Origin: Escherichia phage fEg-Eco06
Sequence record: PQ141284.1
Strand: one strand, 5' to 3'
Length of the DNA stretch: 45,491 nt
Part shown: piece after piece, positions 17,046 through 24,347 of the stretch
How positions within the stretch are numbered: the stretch's first letter is position 1
How the letters are laid out: every line of letters starts with the position of its first letter
Notes under the pieces: model-generated
The model's database searches: none
The model's input: the letters and a program-made list of their open reading frames with translations, nothing else
What the model was told of the DNA's origin: nothing
Made by a program: the position numbers and the translations under genes

Positions 17046-17458
17046 TGGGCTACTTTGAGGACTTAACAAAAGCGTTTGATGTGCCGCTGGTAGCCTTCGG
17101 AACCACCAACGGCATCAAGGTAGCGCTTGAAAACATCGACGCGCCGACGTCAACAGATACGCCGTATCTGGCAAGTTACATGTTGCTGGCGGATACCGAG
17201 CAGGCTGACTTATTCTTCACGGAACAACGCGCCGGTGTCTATCAGATAGACATTAACTACGCATCGGTGAAAGGTAGCGCGCCAATCAATAAAATGGCAG
17301 ACTTACTTAACACGGCGTTTAAATCAGGTAAGTCATTTTCACGTAACGACATCTGCGCCGAGGTTCAATCGGTTAGCCTGGGGCCGCTGATTGTAGAAAA
17401 CGGATGGGCCAAAAGACCATTGTCAATTAACTTTATTGCATTCACCAAGAGGCTGTGA
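17042..17458 (+). CDS. tail terminator-like protein (putative)
   Basis: 138 aa immediately upstream of major tail gene. Confidence 0.45.
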   Translation: MMGYFEDLTKAFDVPLVAFGTTNGIKVALENIDAPTSTDTPYLASYMLLADTEQADLFFTEQRAGVYQIDINYASVKGSAPINKMADLLNTAFKSGKSFSRNDICAEVQSVSLGPLIVENGWAKRPLSINFIAFTKRL

Positions 17459-17460
17459 AT

Positions 17461-18627
17461 ATGGCTACAACTCCTTTTAAGGGCGCGAATACCGCGCAAT
17501 TCTATGTGGCGGAAACTACCCCGGGCGTAACACCGGCTAACCCGGTATGGTCGCCACTGCGTAACACAGGCGGCGTTCCTGCCATTACCCGTGACACACT
17601 GACCTCCAACGAACTGGACGGCAGCCGCGAAACTACATCCATCCGCACCGGTAACAAGCAGGTTAGCGGTGAATATGCTATTGAGCTTAGCTCGAAAAGC
17701 CAGGATGACTGGCTAGCCGGGGCTTTAGGCTCTACGTGGCAGGCTGGCGTATCTCTGTCAGGGCTATCGATTACCGTCGCACCGGCTGGCAAGACGTTCA
17801 CACGTGCCACCGGCAGCTTTATCACTGACGGAGTTGGGGTAGGCGACCTGATTGCGTTTACCGATTTAACTGGCGATAATGCAAAACCATTTATTGTTAC
17901 TGCAGTAACGGCTACGGTTGTTACTGGTGCAGGCATCCAACACACCCTGACCACCGAGACAAAAACTAGTAAGGCTAAAACTGGCGACACGCTGGAAACC
18001 GGTAATACGTGTAAGACGTTCTCTATCCTTACCTGGTACAAAGGCCAGTGCGGCGGTACTGACGCGTACACGTTAACCAAAGGCGTGGAAGTTTCTGGTT
18101 TTACCATCGAACAGGCTGTTAACGCGATGGTAACTGGCAGCTTCCCATTCATCGGTCGCAGTCAGGAGATTCTCACCACGCCGCCGACCGGTTCCAACTT
18201 CTCATCTGTCACTTTTGGTGATGAGCCGTTTTCTTCGGTTGACGTTTCCGTGTTCGATGGTTCTACGCCGTTGCGATGCGACAGTCTGACTATCACCAAC
18301 GATAACAGCGCGTCCGCGCAGTTCGAACTTGGTAACACTAACGTAGCGTTTGTTGAGCGTAGCCGCGCGGCTAACACTTTCTCCATCTCCGGCAAGCTGT
18401 ACGACATGGCGATGATTCAGAAGTTTATCAACGAACAGCAGGTAGAGATTAACTCTATTCTGGCGGGGGTAAACGGGGCTATGTCTTTCAGTTTGAAACG
18501 CGCAGAGCTTACGGCGGTTACACCAGAGATTGGCGGACCTGAGTCAATCACTCAGTCCATTGAGGGGCAGGCCACCGGCAACCAGTACCAGTCGTCTATC
18601 GTAATTCAACGTATCACCTACGCATAA
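17461..18627 (+). CDS. major tail protein (putative)
   Basis: 388 aa from ATG 17461; last gene before tail chaperones; followed by strong terminator. Confidence 0.55.
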   Translation: MATTPFKGANTAQFYVAETTPGVTPANPVWSPLRNTGGVPAITRDTLTSNELDGSRETTSIRTGNKQVSGEYAIELSSKSQDDWLAGALGSTWQAGVSLSGLSITVAPAGKTFTRATGSFITDGVGVGDLIAFTDLTGDNAKPFIVTAVTATVVTGAGIQHTLTTETKTSKAKTGDTLETGNTCKTFSILTWYKGQCGGTDAYTLTKGVEVSGFTIEQAVNAMVTGSFPFIGRSQEILTTPPTGSNFSSVTFGDEPFSSVDVSVFDGSTPLRCDSLTITNDNSASAQFELGNTNVAFVERSRAANTFSISGKLYDMAMIQKFINEQQVEINSILAGVNGAMSFSLKRAELTAVTPEIGGPESITQSIEGQATGNQYQSSIVIQRITYA

Positions 18628-18632
18628 AACTA

Positions 18633-18656
18633 AGGCCCCTTTCGGGGCCTTTTTCT
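18633..18656. terminator. bidirectional intrinsic terminator
   Basis: AGGCCCC / GGGGCCT stem with TTTC loop and T5 run; between convergent + tail gene and - kinase gene. Confidence 0.7.
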
Positions 18657-19210
18657 TACAAACCTAATTTTAAAGCAATGTCTATAACGTTCGATTTAAC
18701 GTCACCCGGTATGATGTAGGTGTCGTAATCTTTTACACCACTAACATCATACAGATAGCCACGGCTATCGCCGATGAACGTATAGCCGTCACGATGGAGG
18801 CGAACGATTTGCACGTCATGCCCTGCGGCGACGATAGGGGCAACTTCACTGGCGAATCCACCGTCGGACACTACAAAAACTTCGTCGCCGTCAGGCAAGT
18901 TTTCAGCAAGATACTTACCGAAATAATCATCGCCGAATACCGGTTTAATGAATTGCTCAGAAATGGCAATCATTAACTGGCGGCGGGACAACCCATTAAG
19001 AAAACCCTCGGGTTTTTCTTTCCGCGCCCGGTCGTCGTAGCCGTCGAGAAATTCGTGGTAAGCATCCTGGCCTAACGCTGCCAAAGCAATATTGAACATC
19101 GGATTCTTGAAACGGGTAGTTCCTTTCGCAAAGCCCATCTCTACCAGCGCCCTAGCAAGTGTGTCTTTCCCACAACCAGCAGGGCCATTAAGAATAATTA
19201 CCTTAGCCAT
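18656..19210 (-). CDS. P-loop kinase (nucleotide or polynucleotide kinase-like)
   Basis: 184 aa; Walker A GPAGCGKDT at N-terminus. Confidence 0.65.
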   Translation of the reverse strand: MAKVIILNGPAGCGKDTLARALVEMGFAKGTTRFKNPMFNIALAALGQDAYHEFLDGYDDRARKEKPEGFLNGLSRRQLMIAISEQFIKPVFGDDYFGKYLAENLPDGDEVFVVSDGGFASEVAPIVAAGHDVQIVRLHRDGYTFIGDSRGYLYDVSGVKDYDTYIIPGDVKSNVIDIALKLGL

Positions 19211-19698
19211 TACTTATCACTCCCGTGTGATTTTAAGTGTGTAGAGTCCCCGTTACAGTCGTACTCAGTGACCGCGTGTGTCGTGATTCCTAAGCCACGG
19301 AAATGCTTAATCACCGCGGGAGAGTCGTCGAATGCGCACAAGATTCTTTCCAGTCCGAAAGCACGCAACACCTCTTCTTTAATTACGATGTCTTTTCTGT
19401 TGTCGTGTTTGCTGCGCATGATTAGCGTGTCAAACCTAACGTTATTCTCTCGTAACCATTCGCGAGTCTCCTCCTCAGCGTCATCACTTCGCCCGGTAAG
19501 GATAATTATAGTAAGTCCGGAATGCCACAGTACGCTACACAAATGGATATTGTCGTATATCGGAGCGTCATCTTTGCAGGCCATGTTAAATGGCTTCCAC
19601 GCCCACGTTTCTCCGTAGTTATCTTTTGGTAACAGGTGTAAGCGATGGGTACCGTCGGCCAATGTCCCGTCTAAATCGAAAATTACAATATCTTTCAT
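19210..19698 (-). CDS. HAD-family phosphatase, polynucleotide kinase 3'-phosphatase-like
   Basis: 162 aa; FDLDGTLA motif I; TGRSD and KDIVIKEE segments resemble the T4 Pnk phosphatase domain (from memory). Confidence 0.65.
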   Translation of the reverse strand: MKDIVIFDLDGTLADGTHRLHLLPKDNYGETWAWKPFNMACKDDAPIYDNIHLCSVLWHSGLTIIILTGRSDDAEEETREWLRENNVRFDTLIMRSKHDNRKDIVIKEEVLRAFGLERILCAFDDSPAVIKHFRGLGITTHAVTEYDCNGDSTHLKSHGSDK

Positions 19699-20825
19699 CC
19701 CAGCATCTCCGGTGAAATAGTTAAACGTGCGACCTCGCCATATTCGGCGCTATAAGTAATTACATTTGCACTGCGGCCCGACATCCATCCGCCGCGAGAG
19801 GCGTAGGCGTCTTTAGCCGCTAAGGTGCGGTGTTGCTCAACAATCATGTTACGGCTTTCTACAATCTTCTGGTGGTGCAGATGTCCTACGTGGGCGTAGC
19901 TGTAAACACTCTCGCCGAACGCTTTACGGAACTTGGCAATCATAACCGGTTCGATAGCGTCGAATCGTGCTTTATGCCCGTGATGGAAGAACAGCGTCGT
20001 TTTGCCGTGTTGCACCATCTTATAAACATCCGGCGACGTATCGACGAATACACGAGGCTCGTTGTCGTACAGTGTGCTGAACATCTCCGCCAGCCAAATC
20101 ATCCCGGATTCGTCGTGGTTCCCCTGAACTATAAGCAAGCGAACAGTTTTATGCTTAACCAGAGCCATATCAACAACACGGCGGACCATGCGAATCATGT
20201 AGCGGACAAGTTTCTGGTAACGCGTGTCGGCGTCAAGGACATGACCACTCGCCGGTGTAACGGCGTCAAGACTATCGAAGTGAGCTAAGTCGCCAAGAAG
20301 ATTAATAACCCCCGTACCTGCATCCGGTGCTTTCTGAAACGCAGCATCAAACCAACGAGAGAATAAGTCCTCCGCGATTTTCATATCCCAGTCGTCGCCG
20401 CTCTCGTCAGCCCAGGCTAACATACCGAGATGGAAATCAGACACGGTGTACAGGTTAAGCAGCTTGTCGTCACGTTTAGCCCGGGCGGCCTTAACTGGCG
20501 GAACGGGAGTAATCTCCGACTTCATGCCTTCGACTACGGCTTTCATCAACTCAACCTGACGTTCGGCATCGGTGTCTGTCTTAACCCACTGCAACTTAGT
20601 GTTACCGAACTCGTCCACCAGAGACGACGTGCCTTTAATCTTGTAGCCGTCTGGTACAAGGTGGCTTACGTCCCGCCCGTGGCCTACGCCTTTCTTAGCC
20701 AGCTTCGCTTTACGGATTCGGATAACGCGGTCTGAGATTCCGTATTTACGGGCGATATCGATATTCTTCATCCCGGCGTTCAATTCTTCCTGTAATTGCT
20801 CGTCGGTTATTTTCTTCTGGGCCAT
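19695..20825 (-). CDS. calcineurin-like metallophosphoesterase with N-terminal HTH-like region
   Basis: 376 aa; DFHLG, GDLAHFD, GNHD, HHGH, GHLHH metal-binding motifs; GAGGAAG RBS. Confidence 0.7.
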   Translation of the reverse strand: MAQKKITDEQLQEELNAGMKNIDIARKYGISDRVIRIRKAKLAKKGVGHGRDVSHLVPDGYKIKGTSSLVDEFGNTKLQWVKTDTDAERQVELMKAVVEGMKSEITPVPPVKAARAKRDDKLLNLYTVSDFHLGMLAWADESGDDWDMKIAEDLFSRWFDAAFQKAPDAGTGVINLLGDLAHFDSLDAVTPASGHVLDADTRYQKLVRYMIRMVRRVVDMALVKHKTVRLLIVQGNHDESGMIWLAEMFSTLYDNEPRVFVDTSPDVYKMVQHGKTTLFFHHGHKARFDAIEPVMIAKFRKAFGESVYSYAHVGHLHHQKIVESRNMIVEQHRTLAAKDAYASRGGWMSGRSANVITYSAEYGEVARLTISPEMLG

Positions 20826-20863
20826 GCTTACTTCCTCGTGTTTAGGATTTGTCTTATAGTAGC

Positions 20864-21082
20864 CTACTTCTCTTTCACGTTCGAGTTACAAGCCCAGATT
20901 AAAATGAATACCCACGGCAACAGAATCCACCCGAGAAATAAGTTAGCCATGAATATCGCCAGCTTTGCTTTATGGTTACGCATATGTGCCACCAAAAACG
21001 GGATAAAATAAACGGCTACAAAAATAATTAAGAAGAACATAGTGATACCGGTCATAACATAACTCCTGATTTGAGATAACAT
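20864..21082 (-). CDS. small two-TM membrane protein, superinfection-immunity-like (putative)
   Basis: track ORF; likely true start is the internal ATG (MTGITMFF, near 21055) preceded by AGGAG; two hydrophobic helices; first gene after the 21099-21127 promoter. Confidence 0.45.
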   Translation of the reverse strand: MLSQIRSYVMTGITMFFLIIFVAVYFIPFLVAHMRNHKAKLAIFMANLFLGWILLPWVFILIWACNSNVKEK

Positions 21083-21098
21083 CGTTGGTGTAAGTGAA

Positions 21099-21127
21099 TA
21101 GTACGCTATTATATTGGGGTGTGCAAG
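21099..21127 (-). promoter_or_regulatory. sigma70-like promoter (TTGCAC-N17-TACTAT family)
   Basis: minus strand TTGCAC (21127-21122), 17-bp spacer, TACTAT (21104-21099). Confidence 0.55.
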
Positions 21128-21233
21128 TAGTGTGCTAGAATAATTTTGCGCCTAGTGTCGCACACGAAAAGCGGGTGGTTCCCGTCTGGCGCATTTCCTT
21201 TAACCAGTAACCTCTTAACCAAAGGATTAAAGA

Positions 21234-21650
21234 ATGAAACTTTCTGATTTTTATTACGAAGCGGAAGCCGAAAAGGGCGCACGTATGCCGATACCGCTAA
21301 AAGACGGTACTGATTCCGGGGAATGGCTTAATGTTGTTTCTCCTGAGGCGGACGTTGCCGTTAAGGCTATGCGCGCGTTCACCCTTGCATACCGGGCAGT
21401 ATTAGGGAAATTAAAACCGCTTCGTGATAAGTGCGAAGAGATGAAAGATTTCTCTGAATACAACCTGAAGATGGAAGACGCGGCGACGGACCTTAACCGT
21501 CAGTTAGCGATTGAATTGGTTAACGGGTGGAGTCTTGACGACGAATTCAATAAAGAGAATCTGAACACACTCCTGACGCAATATAAACGACTCGCGGAAC
21601 TTGTTGTTGTGTTTCATAACGAACAACTGCACCAGCTACAGGAAAAGTAG
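21234..21650 (+). CDS. tail assembly chaperone (G-like)
   Basis: 138 aa directly upstream of tape measure gene; followed by -1 frame ORF. Confidence 0.55.
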   Translation: MKLSDFYYEAEAEKGARMPIPLKDGTDSGEWLNVVSPEADVAVKAMRAFTLAYRAVLGKLKPLRDKCEEMKDFSEYNLKMEDAATDLNRQLAIELVNGWSLDDEFNKENLNTLLTQYKRLAELVVVFHNEQLHQLQEK

Positions 21651-21655
21651 ACGCG

Positions 21656-22015
21656 TTGCTCCAGTTCGCCCGTTGGAACTTCATAACCCGCCACAAACGG
21701 CGGGAATTTGACAGTATCGCCGATGGGCATAAAGCCGCGCTAATTGCTATGGGGGTTATGCAAGACGCGCCGGATGCAACGCAGGCCGCTGGGCCGGAAT
21801 GCCCCCCTGAGCTACTAACCACATTTGAGAAGTACAGGGAAATTAAATTCACCCGCCGAGTGGACGACGACGGCATCAAGATGTACCCGCGCGAGCAATT
21901 ACGATGGTCAGATTTAGTGGCGTACAGCACCGTTTCAGGCCAGAATATAGGGATGTTCGAATCCGACATCATCATGAGCTTAGACGCTATTTTCGAGGGT
22001 AGAAACGATGGCTGA
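21656..22015 (+). CDS. tail assembly chaperone frameshift extension (T-like)
   Basis: -1 frame relative to 21234 gene, open from 21620; slippery-like GGAAAAG at 21641-21647 just before the upstream stop. Confidence 0.45.
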   Translation: MLQFARWNFITRHKRREFDSIADGHKAALIAMGVMQDAPDATQAAGPECPPELLTTFEKYREIKFTRRVDDDGIKMYPREQLRWSDLVAYSTVSGQNIGMFESDIIMSLDAIFEGRNDG

Positions 22016-24347
22016 TGTAGCTAGTTTAGTAGTAAAAGTAACAGAGCAAGGCGCGAAAGCCACATCAGACCGTCTTGACAACCTTTCAAAGTCCGCAAAA
22101 GTAGCGGGGGCCGCCGTAGCAGGCCTTGCTTCTATCGTAGCGGCTACCGCGTATAAAGCTGCCCAAGAACTGGTTGACTCACAGCGGCAACTGGACAAGA
22201 TGTCCGCCAGTTTGAAGACCTTAACAGGAAGTACCCAAGGTGCTAAACAGGCGCTAAGTATCCTGCAAGATTTTGCCCGCGATACCCCATACGGACTGGA
22301 GCAGGCGGTGGAAGGCTTCCGTAAGCTGGTGGCCCTTGGCCTTACCCCATCCGAGGAGGCGTTGCGGTCCTACGGCAATACCGCATCGGCTATGGGCAAG
22401 GACCTTAATCAGATGATTGAGGCGGTAGCCGACGCCAGTACGTTTGAGTTCGAACGCCTAAAAGAATTCGGCATCAAAGCCAAGCAGAACAAAAACGACG
22501 TAGAGTTTACATTCCAGGGGACAACAACCGTAGTTAAGAAAAGCGCTGCCGATATTGAGCAGTATTTACTTAATATTGGTAACGTAAATTTTGCCGGTGC
22601 CATGGCGGACCAGGCCAACACCCTTAATGGCGCTATCGCGAGCGCCAGTGACTCATGGTCGCAGCTAAAAATGACGCTTGCCACCAGTCTTGATGTTGGC
22701 GCACTTGCGGAACCTATCAGGTATATCGATGACTTGATCCAGGAATTAAATGCGTCTGTTGCTTCCGGTGAATTAGCCGCTGAAATGCAGATGTGGGGCG
22801 ACATAGCGTCGGAAGTAGGAAGCGCTATCGAGATGTCATTCGACGCTGCGTTTGGCTTTGTTGGTGATGCCATCAACGGGCTTAATGAACTGTGGGATTT
22901 CAGCAGCAAGAGTATTACCGATAGCGGAGAACAAACGGCCACCACCATCGCTGAATCCGCCGCCGATGCTCTTGACTTCATCGCGGAAGAGTTCACCGCG
23001 ATGGAGAGATTCTTTGAAGATATGGTTAAAGGTGCTCAGGACGCTGGCCGTCTTGTACGCGCCGCTTTTACCCCCGGGGAATCAGTAGACGTAGCTAAAA
23101 ATATCAACTTCCAGCTTGGCATGGCTTTGGGTACCCAGCGCGATGTCGCCGACGTTACGCGTAAAAGTTTCCGCGAACAGGTAGAAGCTCAACAGGATAT
23201 TGTAGCGTTAAAACGCGCGGCGTATGACATCGATAAGGAGTCCGCAAAAGCTGAGGGGTTAAACAAATTTAAGGTAACCGAAACCGGCGGCGGTTCTGAC
23301 GATGACGGGTCAGCCGCAAAAGCCGCTAAGAAAGCAGCGGACGCGTTCGAGCGCCAGAAAAAGGCGGCGGAAGACTTCTACTATCAGTCAATCCATCTTA
23401 ATGATGACGTATTTCAGAAAATAGAAGCTAACCAGGAAGAGCAACTGTCTAAGTTGCAGGATTTTTATAGCAATAAGCTTCTTAGCGACCAACAGTACGA
23501 AAACGCCAAGACGCAGATTATGCTCTCTGCCGAACAGGCCCGCCAGGAAGAACTGGACAAGAAAAGGAAAGAAGCCCAGGAGAAGCAGCAGAAAGGTGAT
23601 GATTTCATGGCTCAGATTATGGGCCAGAACGCCACCGAGCTTGAGCTTCTGGATATTCAGGAACAGCAGAAACTGGCGGTAGCCGATAAGTACCGGGAAC
23701 AAGGTCTGATTAGCGAGAAGCAGTATCAGGCCGCGCTTAACGCCATCAACGAGCAGTACGCAACCAAGCGTGCCGACGCAACGGCAACAGCTTTCGGTAA
23801 CATGGCCTCAAACATCGGGTCTGCGTTGGGCGAGGCTTCTGGCGCGTATAAGGCATTCGCTATCGTACAGGCTACTATAGCCACGTACACCGCAGCTATT
23901 GAGGCATACAAGTCAACGGCGGCTATCCCTGTAGTCGGTCCGTTCCTGGCCCCAGTAGCCGCTGCTGCTGCTGTTGGGGCCGGTATGGCGCAGGTTTCCG
24001 CTATCAGGTCCGCGCGTGAACAGGGCGGTCAGTTATCAGCAGGACAGGCATCTACCATCGCCGAACGCGGTAAACCTGAGGTAATTATGCCGGCGGGGGC
24101 GTCGCGAGTACGCACCGCGCAACAAATGAAAGAGATTATGGGCCAAAACGGGTCTTCTTCCGGCCCATCTAATGTTACTATCGTAAACAACACGAGTTCG
24201 CAAATCGGCAACGTATCTACTGAACAGGATGATGAAGGGCGTCTGCGCATCATCATCGAGGAGCAGGTAGCTGCCTCTTTGCAGAACAGTAATAGTAAGA
24301 TTAGCAAGGCCCGCAAGGCCACAAGAAACGCGCCGGGGTTTAAATAA
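22008..24347 (+). CDS. tail tape measure protein
   Basis: 779 aa, A/Q/E-rich largely helical, positioned after chaperone pair. Confidence 0.8.
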   Translation: MADVASLVVKVTEQGAKATSDRLDNLSKSAKVAGAAVAGLASIVAATAYKAAQELVDSQRQLDKMSASLKTLTGSTQGAKQALSILQDFARDTPYGLEQAVEGFRKLVALGLTPSEEALRSYGNTASAMGKDLNQMIEAVADASTFEFERLKEFGIKAKQNKNDVEFTFQGTTTVVKKSAADIEQYLLNIGNVNFAGAMADQANTLNGAIASASDSWSQLKMTLATSLDVGALAEPIRYIDDLIQELNASVASGELAAEMQMWGDIASEVGSAIEMSFDAAFGFVGDAINGLNELWDFSSKSITDSGEQTATTIAESAADALDFIAEEFTAMERFFEDMVKGAQDAGRLVRAAFTPGESVDVAKNINFQLGMALGTQRDVADVTRKSFREQVEAQQDIVALKRAAYDIDKESAKAEGLNKFKVTETGGGSDDDGSAAKAAKKAADAFERQKKAAEDFYYQSIHLNDDVFQKIEANQEEQLSKLQDFYSNKLLSDQQYENAKTQIMLSAEQARQEELDKKRKEAQEKQQKGDDFMAQIMGQNATELELLDIQEQQKLAVADKYREQGLISEKQYQAALNAINEQYATKRADATATAFGNMASNIGSALGEASGAYKAFAIVQATIATYTAAIEAYKSTAAIPVVGPFLAPVAAAAAVGAGMAQVSAIRSAREQGGQLSAGQASTIAERGKPEVIMPAGASRVRTAQQMKEIMGQNGSSSGPSNVTIVNNTSSQIGNVSTEQDDEGRLRIIIEEQVAASLQNSNSKISKARKATRNAPGFK

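What the first reader, a model, noticed from the sequence alone, without database searches (positions are those of the whole stretch)
21620..21660. Probable programmed -1 frameshift joining the two tail assembly chaperone ORFs
ORF 21656-22015 is in the -1 frame relative to 21234-21650 and is open from 21620. GGAAAAG (21641-21647) sits immediately before the upstream TAG stop, where slipping of the Lys tRNA from AAG to AAA would give a fusion product, as in G/GT-type chaperones upstream of tape measure genes. The heptamer is not a perfect X XXY YYZ site.
Basis: partly seen in the sequence, partly recalled or inferred. Interest (0 to 1): 0.45.

Follow-up and report, generated by a model that had tools for sequence, protein, structure and literature searches.

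The report
Tail chaperone -1 frameshift site
This is the usual phage trick of making a second, longer tail-assembly chaperone by letting a few ribosomes slip back one base just before a stop codon; relatives already carry the same annotation, but here the slip site is followed by a conserved long-range RNA helix that probably promotes the slip.

Summary
The window is a Kagunavirus (Guernseyvirinae) phage, 99.9% identical to Escherichia phage Golestan over 21100-22100. ORF1 is 21234-21650 (Phage_TAC_4). ORF2 is 21656-22015 (Phage_TAC_18), lies in the -1 frame, and that frame is open from 21620. G_GAA_AAG (21641-47) abuts TAG, directly upstream of the tape measure gene.

Evidence from 77 distinct related junctions:
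- A_AAG is invariant, whereas other Lys columns are roughly half AAA.
- The G before GAA is kept behind seven different preceding codons.
- The TTG "start" of ORF2 is CTG in 58 of 77. Some relatives have no ATG/GTG/TTG before codon 108 of 121.

GenBank and RefSeq already annotate a joined CDS at this exact site in K1ind2/3 and fFiEco03. The frameshift is therefore well supported and essentially known, though nobody has shown the fusion protein experimentally.

The new point is a helix starting five bases after the heptamer. In the window it is 21653-62 pairing with 21772-82, closing a predicted branched structure. It is conserved with compensatory changes, yet its 3' arm sits at about +74, +130 or +204 in different clades. 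I read it as the frameshift stimulator. No report of it turned up in my literature searches or in Rfam.

The parts
21234..21650 (+). ORF1, the G-like tail assembly chaperone (138 aa, 15.9 kDa), the product of normal decoding
   Evidence: ORF. PF08748 Phage_TAC_4, 32.5 bits; phrog_15027 positions 1-138, E 2.4e-50. SD AAGGA about 7 nt before the ATG; mass.
21641..21647 (+). Shift site G_GAA_AAG. The invariant core is A_AAG (21644-21647).
   Evidence: AAG is present in 77/77 junctions and the preceding A in 77/77. Heptamer counts: GGAAAAG 62, CGCAAAG 5, AGCAAAG 5, AAAAAAG 2, GTCAAAG 1, GGCAAAG 1, GGGAAAG 1. When the middle codon is GAA, the preceding codon ends in G in 62/62, across 7 codons.
21648..21650 (+). 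Frame-0 stop codon TAG of ORF1, directly 3' of the shift site. Together with 21651-52 it forms the 5-nt spacer.
   Evidence: In 76 of 77 junctions the stop follows AAG directly (TAG 59, TAA 17). One further relative has TGA.
21647..22015 (+). The -1 frame extension (T-like part, 122 codons plus TGA). It is read after the slip, starting with GTA (Val).
   Evidence: PF23812 Phage_TAC_18, 67.2 bits; phrog_15027 positions 143-259. V1, A3 and L4 are invariant, upstream of or at the nominal TTG; the fusion is 260 aa.
21656..21658 (+). TTG, the nominal start of ORF2. It is more likely an internal Leu codon, and it lies inside the helix 5' arm.
   Evidence: TTG in only 19 of 77 distinct junctions, CTG in the rest; the SD-like AGGA is weak (-4.3 kcal/mol) and 12 nt away.
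21653..21662 (+). 5' arm of long-range helix P1 (GCGUUGCUCC), beginning 5 nt after the heptamer
   Evidence: Codons GCG and YTG here are invariant at synonymous positions. Pair probability is 0.80-1.0 in contexts of 150 to 701 nt.
21772..21782 (+). 3' arm of helix P1 (GGAUGCAACGC, with one bulged U)
   Evidence: 90.3% of cells paired against 18-47% for slid controls, and four pairs with changes on both sides. RNAalifold predicts the helix independently.
21668..21728 (+). Inner stem-loop domain inside P1: 21668-76/21720-28, 21678-83/21709-15 and 21687-92/21699-704. It is clade-specific.
   Evidence: It is not conserved family-wide (49% of cells paired).
21737..21770 (+). Second, weaker inner hairpin. 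With the domain above and P1 it gives a predicted three-way junction.
   Evidence: This rests on the MFE prediction only.
22008..24347 (+). Tape measure protein gene (779 aa). Its ATG overlaps the end of the -1 ORF by 8 nt.
   Evidence: (phrog_1538, E 1.9e-205).

Best explanation
Most ribosomes translating the chaperone gene 21234-21650 stop at TAG and release the 138-aa G-like chaperone. A minority slip one base backwards on G_GAA_AAG (21641-47).

Proposed slip mechanism:
- tRNA-Lys re-pairs from AAG to AAA. This step is cognate and is the best tetranucleotide slip known in E. coli.
- tRNA-Glu re-pairs from GAA to GGA. This is near-cognate, with a G-U at the middle position.
- The ribosome then reads GTA GAC GCG TTG... 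to 22015.
- The product is a 260-aa, 29.8-kDa G-T fusion (…LQEK-VDALLQFARW…).
- The TTG at 21656 is an internal leucine codon, not a start.

The slip is probably promoted by an RNA helix whose 5' arm begins 5 nt after the heptamer. In the window this is 21653-62 pairing with 21772-82, closing a roughly 130-nt branched structure. The base of the helix would then sit at the ribosome's mRNA entrance while GAA and AAG occupy the P and A sites.

By analogy with lambda gpG/gpGT, both proteins would bind the tape measure protein, and the T part would recruit the tail tube protein.

What is shown here: the frames, the motif, its conservation, the absence of a conserved start, the homology of both halves, and the helix with its covariation.

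What is inferred: that slipping occurs at all, its efficiency, tandem rather than single-tRNA slippage, the stimulatory role of the helix, and the function of the two proteins.
For: - Frames and motif.
- TAC homology of both halves and the fused PHROG profile.
- Motif conservation: A_AAG is invariant in 77 distinct junctions across five different preceding codons. G at heptamer position 1 is kept behind seven codons for six amino acids.
- Canonical heptamers at the same place in relatives: G_GGA_AAG in L093, and A_AAA_AAG in L071, L072 and Shewanella phage 3/49.
- Shift position: the -1 frame is open for as few as 5 codons upstream in some relatives. If the shift is at a homologous position, it must fall in the last codons of ORF1.
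- No conserved start: TTG in 19 of 77, CTG in the rest, with the first ATG/GTG/TTG as late as codon 108 of 121.
- Prior annotation: deposited joined proteins of K1ind2/3 and fFiEco03/fPoEco01 equal my slip-at-AAG fusion exactly. Shewanella 3/49 also carries a join.
- Helix, hexamer scan: of 480 hexamer positions scanned, the one at +6 is by far the best at having a perfect complement at a fixed downstream offset, in 22 of 25 representatives.
- Helix, pairing counts: 14-bp helix, 93% of cells paired against 21-50% for slid controls. 10-bp helix, 90% against 18-47%.
- Helix, compensatory changes: three pairs in one group and four in the other.
- Helix, independent predictions: RNAalifold finds it. 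It is in the window's MFE, with pair probability at least 0.8 even in a 701-nt context. The core has probability at least 0.8 in 24 of 25 representatives in local context.
- Helix in a distant relative: Shewanella 3/49 has a helix of unrelated sequence at the same place.
- Literature: A_AAG is the best tetramer but needs a stimulator, about 0.15% without and up to 5.6% with the IS3 pseudoknot (PMC4066793). NNA_AAG sites, G_GA first halves and branched stimulators are known (PMC5009743).
Against: - No protein or reporter data were found for any member of this phage group.
- The Shashou genome paper states there is no canonical slippery sequence (PMC6776780). RefSeq Golestan annotates two separate chaperone genes.
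- In this window a TTG with a weak SD-like AGGA does exist. Separate initiation or reinitiation therefore cannot be excluded here.
- The P-site re-pairing GAA to GGA is imperfect. In the GCA and TCA clades it is essentially impossible, so tandem slippage cannot be the general mechanism.
- The helix encloses 110-190 nt, which is unusual for a bacterial stimulator. It was found from these same sequences, which inflates the slid controls. The sequences are related, so covariation counts overstate the number of independent events.
- The helix could serve another purpose, such as masking the YUG codon, mRNA stability or RNA processing.
Confidence: 0.85

Rival explanations
1. There is no frameshift. 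ORF2 is a separate gene, translated from TTG 21656 either by direct initiation at the AGGA 12 nt upstream or by reinitiation of ribosomes that have just terminated at TAG 21648-50. The T-like protein would then act on its own.
For: A TTG is present, with an SD-like AGGA of -4.3 kcal/mol. The YTG codon is invariant at synonymous positions. Several records annotate a separate CDS, including at CTG. The Shashou paper found no canonical slippery sequence.
Against: - The codon is CTG in 58 of 77 distinct junctions, and some relatives have no ATG/GTG/TTG before codon 94-108.
- The clades with CGCAAAG, AGCAAAG or GTCAAAG have no SD-like sequence, yet they keep A_AAG.
- The invariance of YTG and GCG is explained by the helix 5' arm.
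- The TTG is buried in that helix.
- SD spacing and strength are poorer than for ORF1 and the tape measure gene.
- This model does not explain the conserved AAG, the preceding A or the G at position 1.
Confidence: 0.08
2. A frameshift occurs, but by single-tRNA slippage. Peptidyl-tRNA-Lys in the P site slips from AAG to AAA while the slowly decoded stop codon sits in the A site (a 'shifty stop'). There would be no contribution from tRNA-Glu re-pairing.
For: Only A_AAG plus a directly adjacent stop is common to all clades, in 76 of 77 junctions. In the GCA and TCA clades the upstream tRNA cannot re-pair. TAG accounts for 59 of 77 stops here, against roughly 5 of 45 long ORFs in the window. Z_ZZN and NNA_AAG shifts are established (PMC5009743).
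Against: - Where the upstream codon is GAA, the base before it is G in 62 of 62 junctions behind seven different codons. Only two-tRNA slippage explains that.
- Relatives carry full heptamers at the same site, G_GGA_AAG and A_AAA_AAG.
- The 5-nt spacer places the helix correctly for AAG in the A site, not the P site.
- In L073 the stop lies one codon further on.
- The two modes may coexist across clades.
Confidence: 0.25
3. The fusion arises by transcriptional slippage, with RNA polymerase changing the length of the A run in GGAAAAG, rather than by ribosomal slippage.
For: There is a short A run at the junction. L071, L072 and Shewanella 3/49 have A6-A7 runs.
Against: The run is only four A in the window and three in the GCAAAG and TCAAAG clades. 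From my own knowledge, not tested here, efficient bacterial polymerase slippage needs about 7-9 identical bases. The strict G after the A run and the downstream RNA helix fit ribosomal slippage instead.
Confidence: 0.01
4. The long-range helix is real but is not a frameshift stimulator. It might instead mask the internal YUG and AGGA from spurious initiation, stabilise the tail-operon mRNA, or form a processing site.
For: The enclosed loop of 60-190 nt is far larger than in classical bacterial stimulators. The 3' arm has moved between clades. The TTG lies inside the 5' arm.
Against: The 5' arm always begins 3-5 nt after the shift site, even in Shewanella 3/49 where the arm sequence is unrelated. 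A_AAG alone is barely shifty without a stimulator (PMC4066793). No other conserved candidate was found, neither an upstream SD nor a local hairpin.
Confidence: 0.3

Closest known systems
Phage lambda gpG/gpGT and the conserved tail-assembly-chaperone frameshift of tailed phages (Levin 1993; Xu, Hendrix & Duda 2004, 2013, 2014, as summarised in PMC5009743)
   Same: Two overlapping ORFs lie just upstream of the tape measure gene. The second is in the -1 frame. The slip is on a ...A_AAG motif near the end of the first ORF, and one relative (L093) has lambda's exact G_GGA_AAG. The expected outcome is a minor fusion product alongside a major short product.
   Different: The protein families differ from lambda G/T: Phage_TAC_4 plus Phage_TAC_18. 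The heptamer is G_GAA_AAG. The stop codon abuts the motif. A conserved downstream long-range helix is present here. From memory, not tested here, the lambda site is described as working largely without one. Four reverse-strand genes separate the tube gene from the chaperone genes.
Joined chaperone CDS already annotated in relatives: K1ind2/K1ind3 ORF22A/22B (ADA82468.1, YP_009597354.1), fFiEco03/fPoEco01 (QNO11663.1), Shewanella phage 3/49 (YP_009103923.1)
   Same: Homologous genes, the same shift position (…EK|V…) and the same frame. My reconstruction equals the deposited sequences exactly.
   Different: Those entries are annotations without experiment and without any described stimulator. 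Golestan-type genomes, including the RefSeq record 99.9% identical to this window over 21100-22100, carry two separate CDS.
Tetra- and hexanucleotide -1 shift sites with A_AAG: IS3 (C_CA A_AAG plus pseudoknot), IS1222 (G_CGA_AAG), B. subtilis cdd (A_CGA_AAG)
   Same: The invariant element is A_AAG, decoded by the single E. coli tRNA-Lys. The upstream codon need not re-pair perfectly. A 3' structure a few bases downstream is needed for useful levels (PMC4066793, PMC5009743).
   Different: This is a phage structural-gene context. The predicted stimulator is a long-range helix closing a branched domain, not a compact pseudoknot. No upstream SD-like element is conserved.
IS911 three-way-junction stimulator, and the distal (>200 nt) effect on T7 gene 10 frameshifting
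   Same: A branched or long-range 3' RNA element is associated with a bacterial -1 frameshift (PMC5009743).
   Different: There is no sequence relationship and no Rfam match. The helix here directly abuts the shift site. Its 3' partner differs between clades (+74, +130, +204).

Membership tests
G/GT-type tail assembly chaperone frameshift | A pair of ORFs immediately upstream of the tape measure gene and downstream of the tail tube gene | tested here: met
   ORF1 and ORF2 are at 21234-22015 and the tape measure gene at 22008-24347. The tube gene is at 17455-18627 (PF18906).. Caveat: four reverse-strand genes (18656-21082) lie between the tube gene and the chaperone genes.
G/GT-type tail assembly chaperone frameshift | The second ORF overlaps the 3' end of the first in another frame and has no conserved start of its own | tested here: met
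   It is in the -1 frame and open from 21620. TTG is present in only 19 of 77 distinct junctions and is CTG elsewhere. The first canonical start can be as late as codon 108 of 121. In the window itself a TTG exists.
G/GT-type tail assembly chaperone frameshift | A slippery sequence in the overlap, conserved at the nucleotide level | tested here: met
   A_AAG is present in 77 of 77 junctions. Position-1 G is present in 62 of 62 when the upstream codon is GAA.
G/GT-type tail assembly chaperone frameshift | Both parts are homologous to known chaperone families | tested here: met
   PF08748 at 32.5 bits (cut-off 21.1). PF23812 at 67.2 bits (cut-off 27). phrog_15027 covers both halves.
G/GT-type tail assembly chaperone frameshift | The fusion protein is made at a low fixed ratio, and both products are needed for tail assembly | not testable with these tools
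   No proteomic or genetic data were found for Guernseyvirinae.
Canonical X_XXY_YYZ heptamer | The first three bases are identical and bases four to six are identical | tested here: not met
   The window has G_GAA_AAG, so XXX is GGA. The criterion is met in relatives: G_GGA_AAG in L093, and A_AAA_AAG in L071, L072 and Shewanella 3/49. G_GA first halves are described as intermediates in PMC5009743.
Z_ZZN / NNA_AAG minimal -1 shift sites | A tetranucleotide A_AAG that allows cognate re-pairing of tRNA-Lys in the -1 frame | tested here: met
   Positions 21644-47, invariant across relatives. The motif hierarchy comes from PMC4066793.
Z_ZZN / NNA_AAG minimal -1 shift sites | A 3' stimulatory structure a few nucleotides after the motif | tested here: inconclusive
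   A helix with a 5-nt spacer is predicted, conserved and covarying. Its effect on frameshifting has not been measured.
IS911-type three-way-junction stimulator | A branched structure of defined architecture, related in sequence or structure to IS911 | tested here: not met
   A three-way junction is predicted in the window's MFE only. The inner stems are not conserved. No Rfam family matches. This is a resemblance in principle, not membership.

The most novel reading that the evidence does not exclude
Guernseyvirinae-type tail chaperone genes use a distinctive frameshift cassette. It consists of a minimal A_AAG slip site abutting the stop codon, with the upstream codon free to vary. It is driven by a long-range helix that starts 3-5 nt downstream. 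The 5' arm of that helix is fixed, while its 3' partner has been relocated at least three times during evolution (about +74, +130 and +204), giving enclosed loops of 60-190 nt. That would be an evolutionarily mobile, long-range -1 frameshift stimulator in a bacterial virus. It would also give a natural series for asking how loop size and branching affect stimulation.
Probability: 0.55. Interest if true: 0.55.

Novelty: new member of a known kind. Interest (0 to 1): 0.4.

Why it matters
For annotation: Golestan-type Kagunavirus genomes, and most Jerseyvirus records, should carry a joined 260-aa chaperone CDS rather than a separate "hypothetical protein" starting at TTG or CTG. The published statement that these phages lack a slippery sequence should be revised.

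For recoding biology: the family offers a well-sampled natural experiment with hundreds of genomes. It contains five shift-site variants and a stimulatory helix whose distal arm has changed position. This bears on two questions. How much P-site re-pairing do bacterial ribosomes need? Can a helix closing a large branched loop work as a stimulator? These phages are widely used therapeutic and biocontrol candidates, so correct structural-gene models have practical value.

Tried and rejected
- A local hairpin or pseudoknot within about 100 nt of the site. RNAalifold on a 114-column alignment of 28 diverse sequences found nothing (-0.75 kcal/mol).
- The strong local stem in the window (21668-76/21720-28, z -2.8). 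It starts 21 nt from the heptamer and is paired in only 49% of cells across the family, so I reject it as the general stimulator. It is retained as an inner domain.
- An upstream SD-like stimulator as in dnaX. No conserved purine-rich element lies 10-14 nt upstream.
- Other shift sites in the overlap window. None has a Z_ZZN motif.
- Rfam. The only hit is a chance sR32 match at 14.7 bits against a gathering score of 40.
- Literature searches for a described frameshift or stimulator in Kagunavirus, Jerseyvirus or Guernseyvirinae. They gave only the Shashou note.
- "Stop is never TGA". This was dropped after Klebsiella phage VLCpiS11a showed AAG TGA.
- A sigma-70 promoter scan of 20800-22200 found nothing.
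Full report
**Identity of the window.**
The 1-kb stretch around the finding is 99.7-99.9% identical to Escherichia phage VB_EcoS-Golestan and its close kin (Kagunavirus, Guernseyvirinae). It is 80-90% identical to several hundred Escherichia and Salmonella (Jerseyvirus) phages.

**Check of the observation.**
ORF1 runs 21234-21650 and ends CAG GAA AAG TAG. ORF2, as listed, runs from TTG 21656 to TGA 22015 in the -1 frame. The -1 frame has TAA at 21617-19, so it is open from 21620. GGAAAAG is at 21641-47. Within the 31-nt overlap window this is the only position with a Z_ZZN motif.

**What the ORFs are.**
- ORF1 matches Pfam Phage_TAC_4, and ORF2 matches Phage_TAC_18.
- Both also match a single 259-residue PHROG, phrog_15027 "tail assembly chaperone". 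ORF1 falls on profile positions 1-138 and ORF2 on 143-259.
- That arrangement is what a profile built from fused proteins would give.
- The next gene (22008-24347) is the tape measure protein. Its ATG overlaps the end of ORF2 by 8 nt.
- The tail tube gene is at 17455-18627. Four reverse-strand genes lie between it and the chaperones.

**Prior annotation.**
- GenBank K1ind3 (ORF22A/22B) and fFiEco03 carry a two-piece joined CDS over the homologous genes. So does RefSeq Shewanella phage 3/49.
- I built fusions by letting the ribosome re-read the G of AAG (…QEK|VDAL…). For K1ind3 and fFiEco03 the result is identical to the deposited proteins ADA82468.1/YP_009597354.1 and QNO11663.1/YP_010748927.1.
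- The window's own 260-aa fusion is not in the 15-billion-protein collection.
- RefSeq Golestan, Ent1, Bas71, Eta and others annotate two separate CDS, some starting at CTG.
- The Shashou genome paper says there is "no canonical slippery sequence" (PMC6776780).
- The frameshift is therefore annotated in some relatives, denied in others, and untested experimentally as far as my searches show.

**Comparative test of the shift site.**
I collected 86 related loci, which gave 77 distinct junctions. Their -1-frame part is down to 43% identical to the window's.
- The last sense codon is AAG in 77/77.
- The base before it is A in 77/77, although the codon carrying it is GAA, GGA, GCA, TCA or AAA.
- Heptamer counts are GGAAAAG 62, CGCAAAG 5, AGCAAAG 5, AAAAAAG 2, GTCAAAG 1, GGCAAAG 1 and GGGAAAG 1.
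- In 25 representatives, other conserved Lys columns are mixed, for example AAA 11/AAG 7 and 7/7. The window overall uses AAA 369 and AAG 312.
- Where the upstream codon is GAA, the preceding codon ends in G in 62/62. Those codons are AAG, ATG, CAG, CTG, GCG, TCG and TTG, coding six amino acids. This is the signature of selection on heptamer position 1.
- Where the upstream codon is GCA, that position varies (C, G or A).
- Two relatives' clades have textbook heptamers at the same spot: lambda's G_GGA_AAG, and dnaX's A_AAA_AAG.
- The frame-0 stop follows AAG directly in 76/77 (TAG 59, TAA 17). Klebsiella phage VLCpiS11a has TGA.

**Test of an independent start.**
- The TTG at codon 4 of the -1 reading is present in only 19 of 77 distinct junctions, those of the Golestan and Jersey clades. 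It is CTG in the rest.
- Elsewhere the first ATG/GTG/TTG in the -1 frame lies at codon 10 to 108 of about 121.
- The residues V1, A3 and L4, upstream of or at the nominal start, are invariant.
- In the window the only SD-like element is AGGA, which is part of the heptamer. It has -4.3 kcal/mol and lies 12 nt from the TTG. ORF1 and the tape measure gene have stronger, better-spaced sites.
- In some relatives the -1 frame is open for only 5 codons upstream of the site. A shift at a homologous position must then fall in the last few codons of ORF1.

**Downstream structure.**
- A 114-column alignment gave no consensus structure. The window's strong local stem at 21668-21728 is not conserved.
- The codon table nevertheless showed that codons +3 (GCG, 25/25) and +4 (YTG, 25/25) are frozen at synonymous positions. 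Other Ala and Leu columns use all codons.
- I searched for complements of this hexamer. It has a perfect Watson-Crick partner at +204 in 14 representatives and at +130 in 8. The change GCGCTG to GCGTTG in the window's clade is matched by CAGCGC to CAACGC.
- As a control I scanned all 480 hexamer positions from -150 to +330. This position is by far the best, and neighbouring positions extend the duplex.
- RNAduplex shows helices of 10-16 bp. Examples are:
  - Eta: GCGCUGUAUGAAUU/AAUUCAUACAGCGC.
  - L048: UGCGCUGUACGAAU/AUUCGUACAGCGCA.
  - L071: GCGCUGCAUAAAU/AUUUAUGCAGCG.
  - Ent1: GCGUUGUUUC/GAAACAACGC.
  - The window: GCGUUGC-UCC/GGA-U-GCAACGC.
- Pair counts on two alignments support this.
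  - The +204 group has 34 sequences and a 14-bp helix. 93.1% of cells are paired against 21-50% when the 3' arm is slid. Three pairs have changes on both sides. No shuffle out of 500 reached the covariation score.
  - The +130 group has 39 sequences and a 10-bp helix. 90.3% of cells are paired against 18-47%. Four pairs have changes on both sides, including CG/UA in 14 sequences.
- RNAalifold predicts the helix on its own.
- In the window the helix 21653-62/21772-82 is in the MFE structure of 21641-21790 (-55.9 kcal/mol, z -2.3). It keeps pair probability 0.80-0.87 in a 701-nt context.
- The helix core has probability at least 0.8 in 24 of 25 representatives locally, and in 19 of 25 in a 530-nt context.
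- Shewanella phage 3/49 has a T part only 33% identical. It has A_AAA_AAG TAG followed after 3 nt by an unrelated 10-bp helix, AUGCCCUGCU/AGCAGGGCAU, with its 3' arm at about +74.
- The conserved feature is therefore a helix beginning 3-5 nt after the shift site. Its distal arm sits in three different places.
- No Rfam family matches.

**Mechanism.**
- Established knowledge: A_AAG is the most shift-prone tetranucleotide in E. coli. It is barely active alone (about 0.15%) and reaches several percent with a 3' structure (PMC4066793).
- NNA_AAG sites (IS1222, B. subtilis cdd), G_GA first halves, the IS911 three-way junction and a distal effect in T7 gene 10 are all documented (PMC5009743).
- The 5-nt spacer puts the base of the helix about 12 nt from the first P-site base when GAA and AAG are in the P and A sites. 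That is the classical geometry.
- I therefore favour tandem slippage on G_GAA_AAG, stimulated by the helix, producing a minor 260-aa G-T fusion next to the major 138-aa product.
- The GCA and TCA clades, and the abutting stop, leave room for a single-tRNA "shifty stop" component.
- The role of the two proteins in tail assembly is inferred from lambda gpG/gpGT.

**Caveats.**
- Nothing here measures frameshifting.
- The sequences are phylogenetically related, so counts are not independent events.
- The helix was discovered on the same data used to score it.
- The window does have a TTG. A low level of separate initiation or reinitiation cannot be excluded.
- The helix may have other or additional roles.

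**Verdict.**
The frameshift is a new member of a very well-known kind and is already annotated at the identical site in congeners. That keeps the interest moderate. The conserved, covarying long-range helix with relocated 3' arms is the part that no paper or Rfam family in my searches described, and it is worth a bench test.

Noticed in passing
window 21653-21658; L-series loci at v+6..v+11: Codons +3 (GCG) and +4 (YTG) after the shift are invariant at synonymous positions in 25 of 25 diverse representatives. Other Ala and Leu columns use all codons. This led to the long-range helix.
   Followed up: yes
L098 (Shewanella phage 3/49) 795-890; A3 and A4 alignments: The 3' arm of the post-shift helix lies at about +74, +130 or +204 in different clades, while the 5' arm stays next to the shift site. 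The distal partner seems to have been replaced during evolution.
   Followed up: partly
window 21648-21650 and homologous positions: The stop after the shift site is TAG in 59 and TAA in 17 of 77 junctions. TGA was seen only in Klebsiella phage VLCpiS11a, which lies outside that set. Long ORFs of the window use TAA 21, TGA 19 and TAG 5. TGA would also keep Val in the -1 frame, so the bias is not explained by coding.
   Followed up: partly
window 18656-21082, minus strand: Four reverse-strand genes sit between the tail tube gene and the chaperone genes. In relatives they are annotated as a kinase-like protein, polynucleotide kinase, metallophosphoesterase/DNA repair exonuclease and superinfection immunity protein. 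They interrupt the usual tube-chaperone-tape measure order.
   Followed up: no
window 22008-22015: The tape measure ATG overlaps the end of the -1 ORF (ATGGCTGA). Only ribosomes that have frameshifted terminate at this overlap. Ribosomes finishing ORF1 stop about 360 nt upstream. The tape measure gene has its own GAGGG Shine-Dalgarno sequence.
   Followed up: no
L093 995-1001; L071/L072 995-1001; L016 786-792: There are natural shift-site variants at the same position. One K1-type phage has G_GGA_AAG, two metagenomic relatives have A_AAA_AAG, and Serratia phage Eta has G_UCA_AAG.
   Followed up: partly
window 21547-21975, minus strand: A 142-codon antisense ORF overlaps the junction and the T part. 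It was not tested further and is probably spurious.
   Followed up: no
MG969408.1 Salmonella phage GE_vB_HIL 20748-21099: The T-part match is split into two tblastn pieces at 77.7% identity. This may be a sequencing indel or a real disruption in that record.
   Followed up: no
window 21083-21233: This is the 150-nt divergent intergenic region upstream of ORF1. The simple sigma-70 scan found no promoter, although an extended -10-like TGCTAGAAT is visible at about 21134-21142.
   Followed up: no
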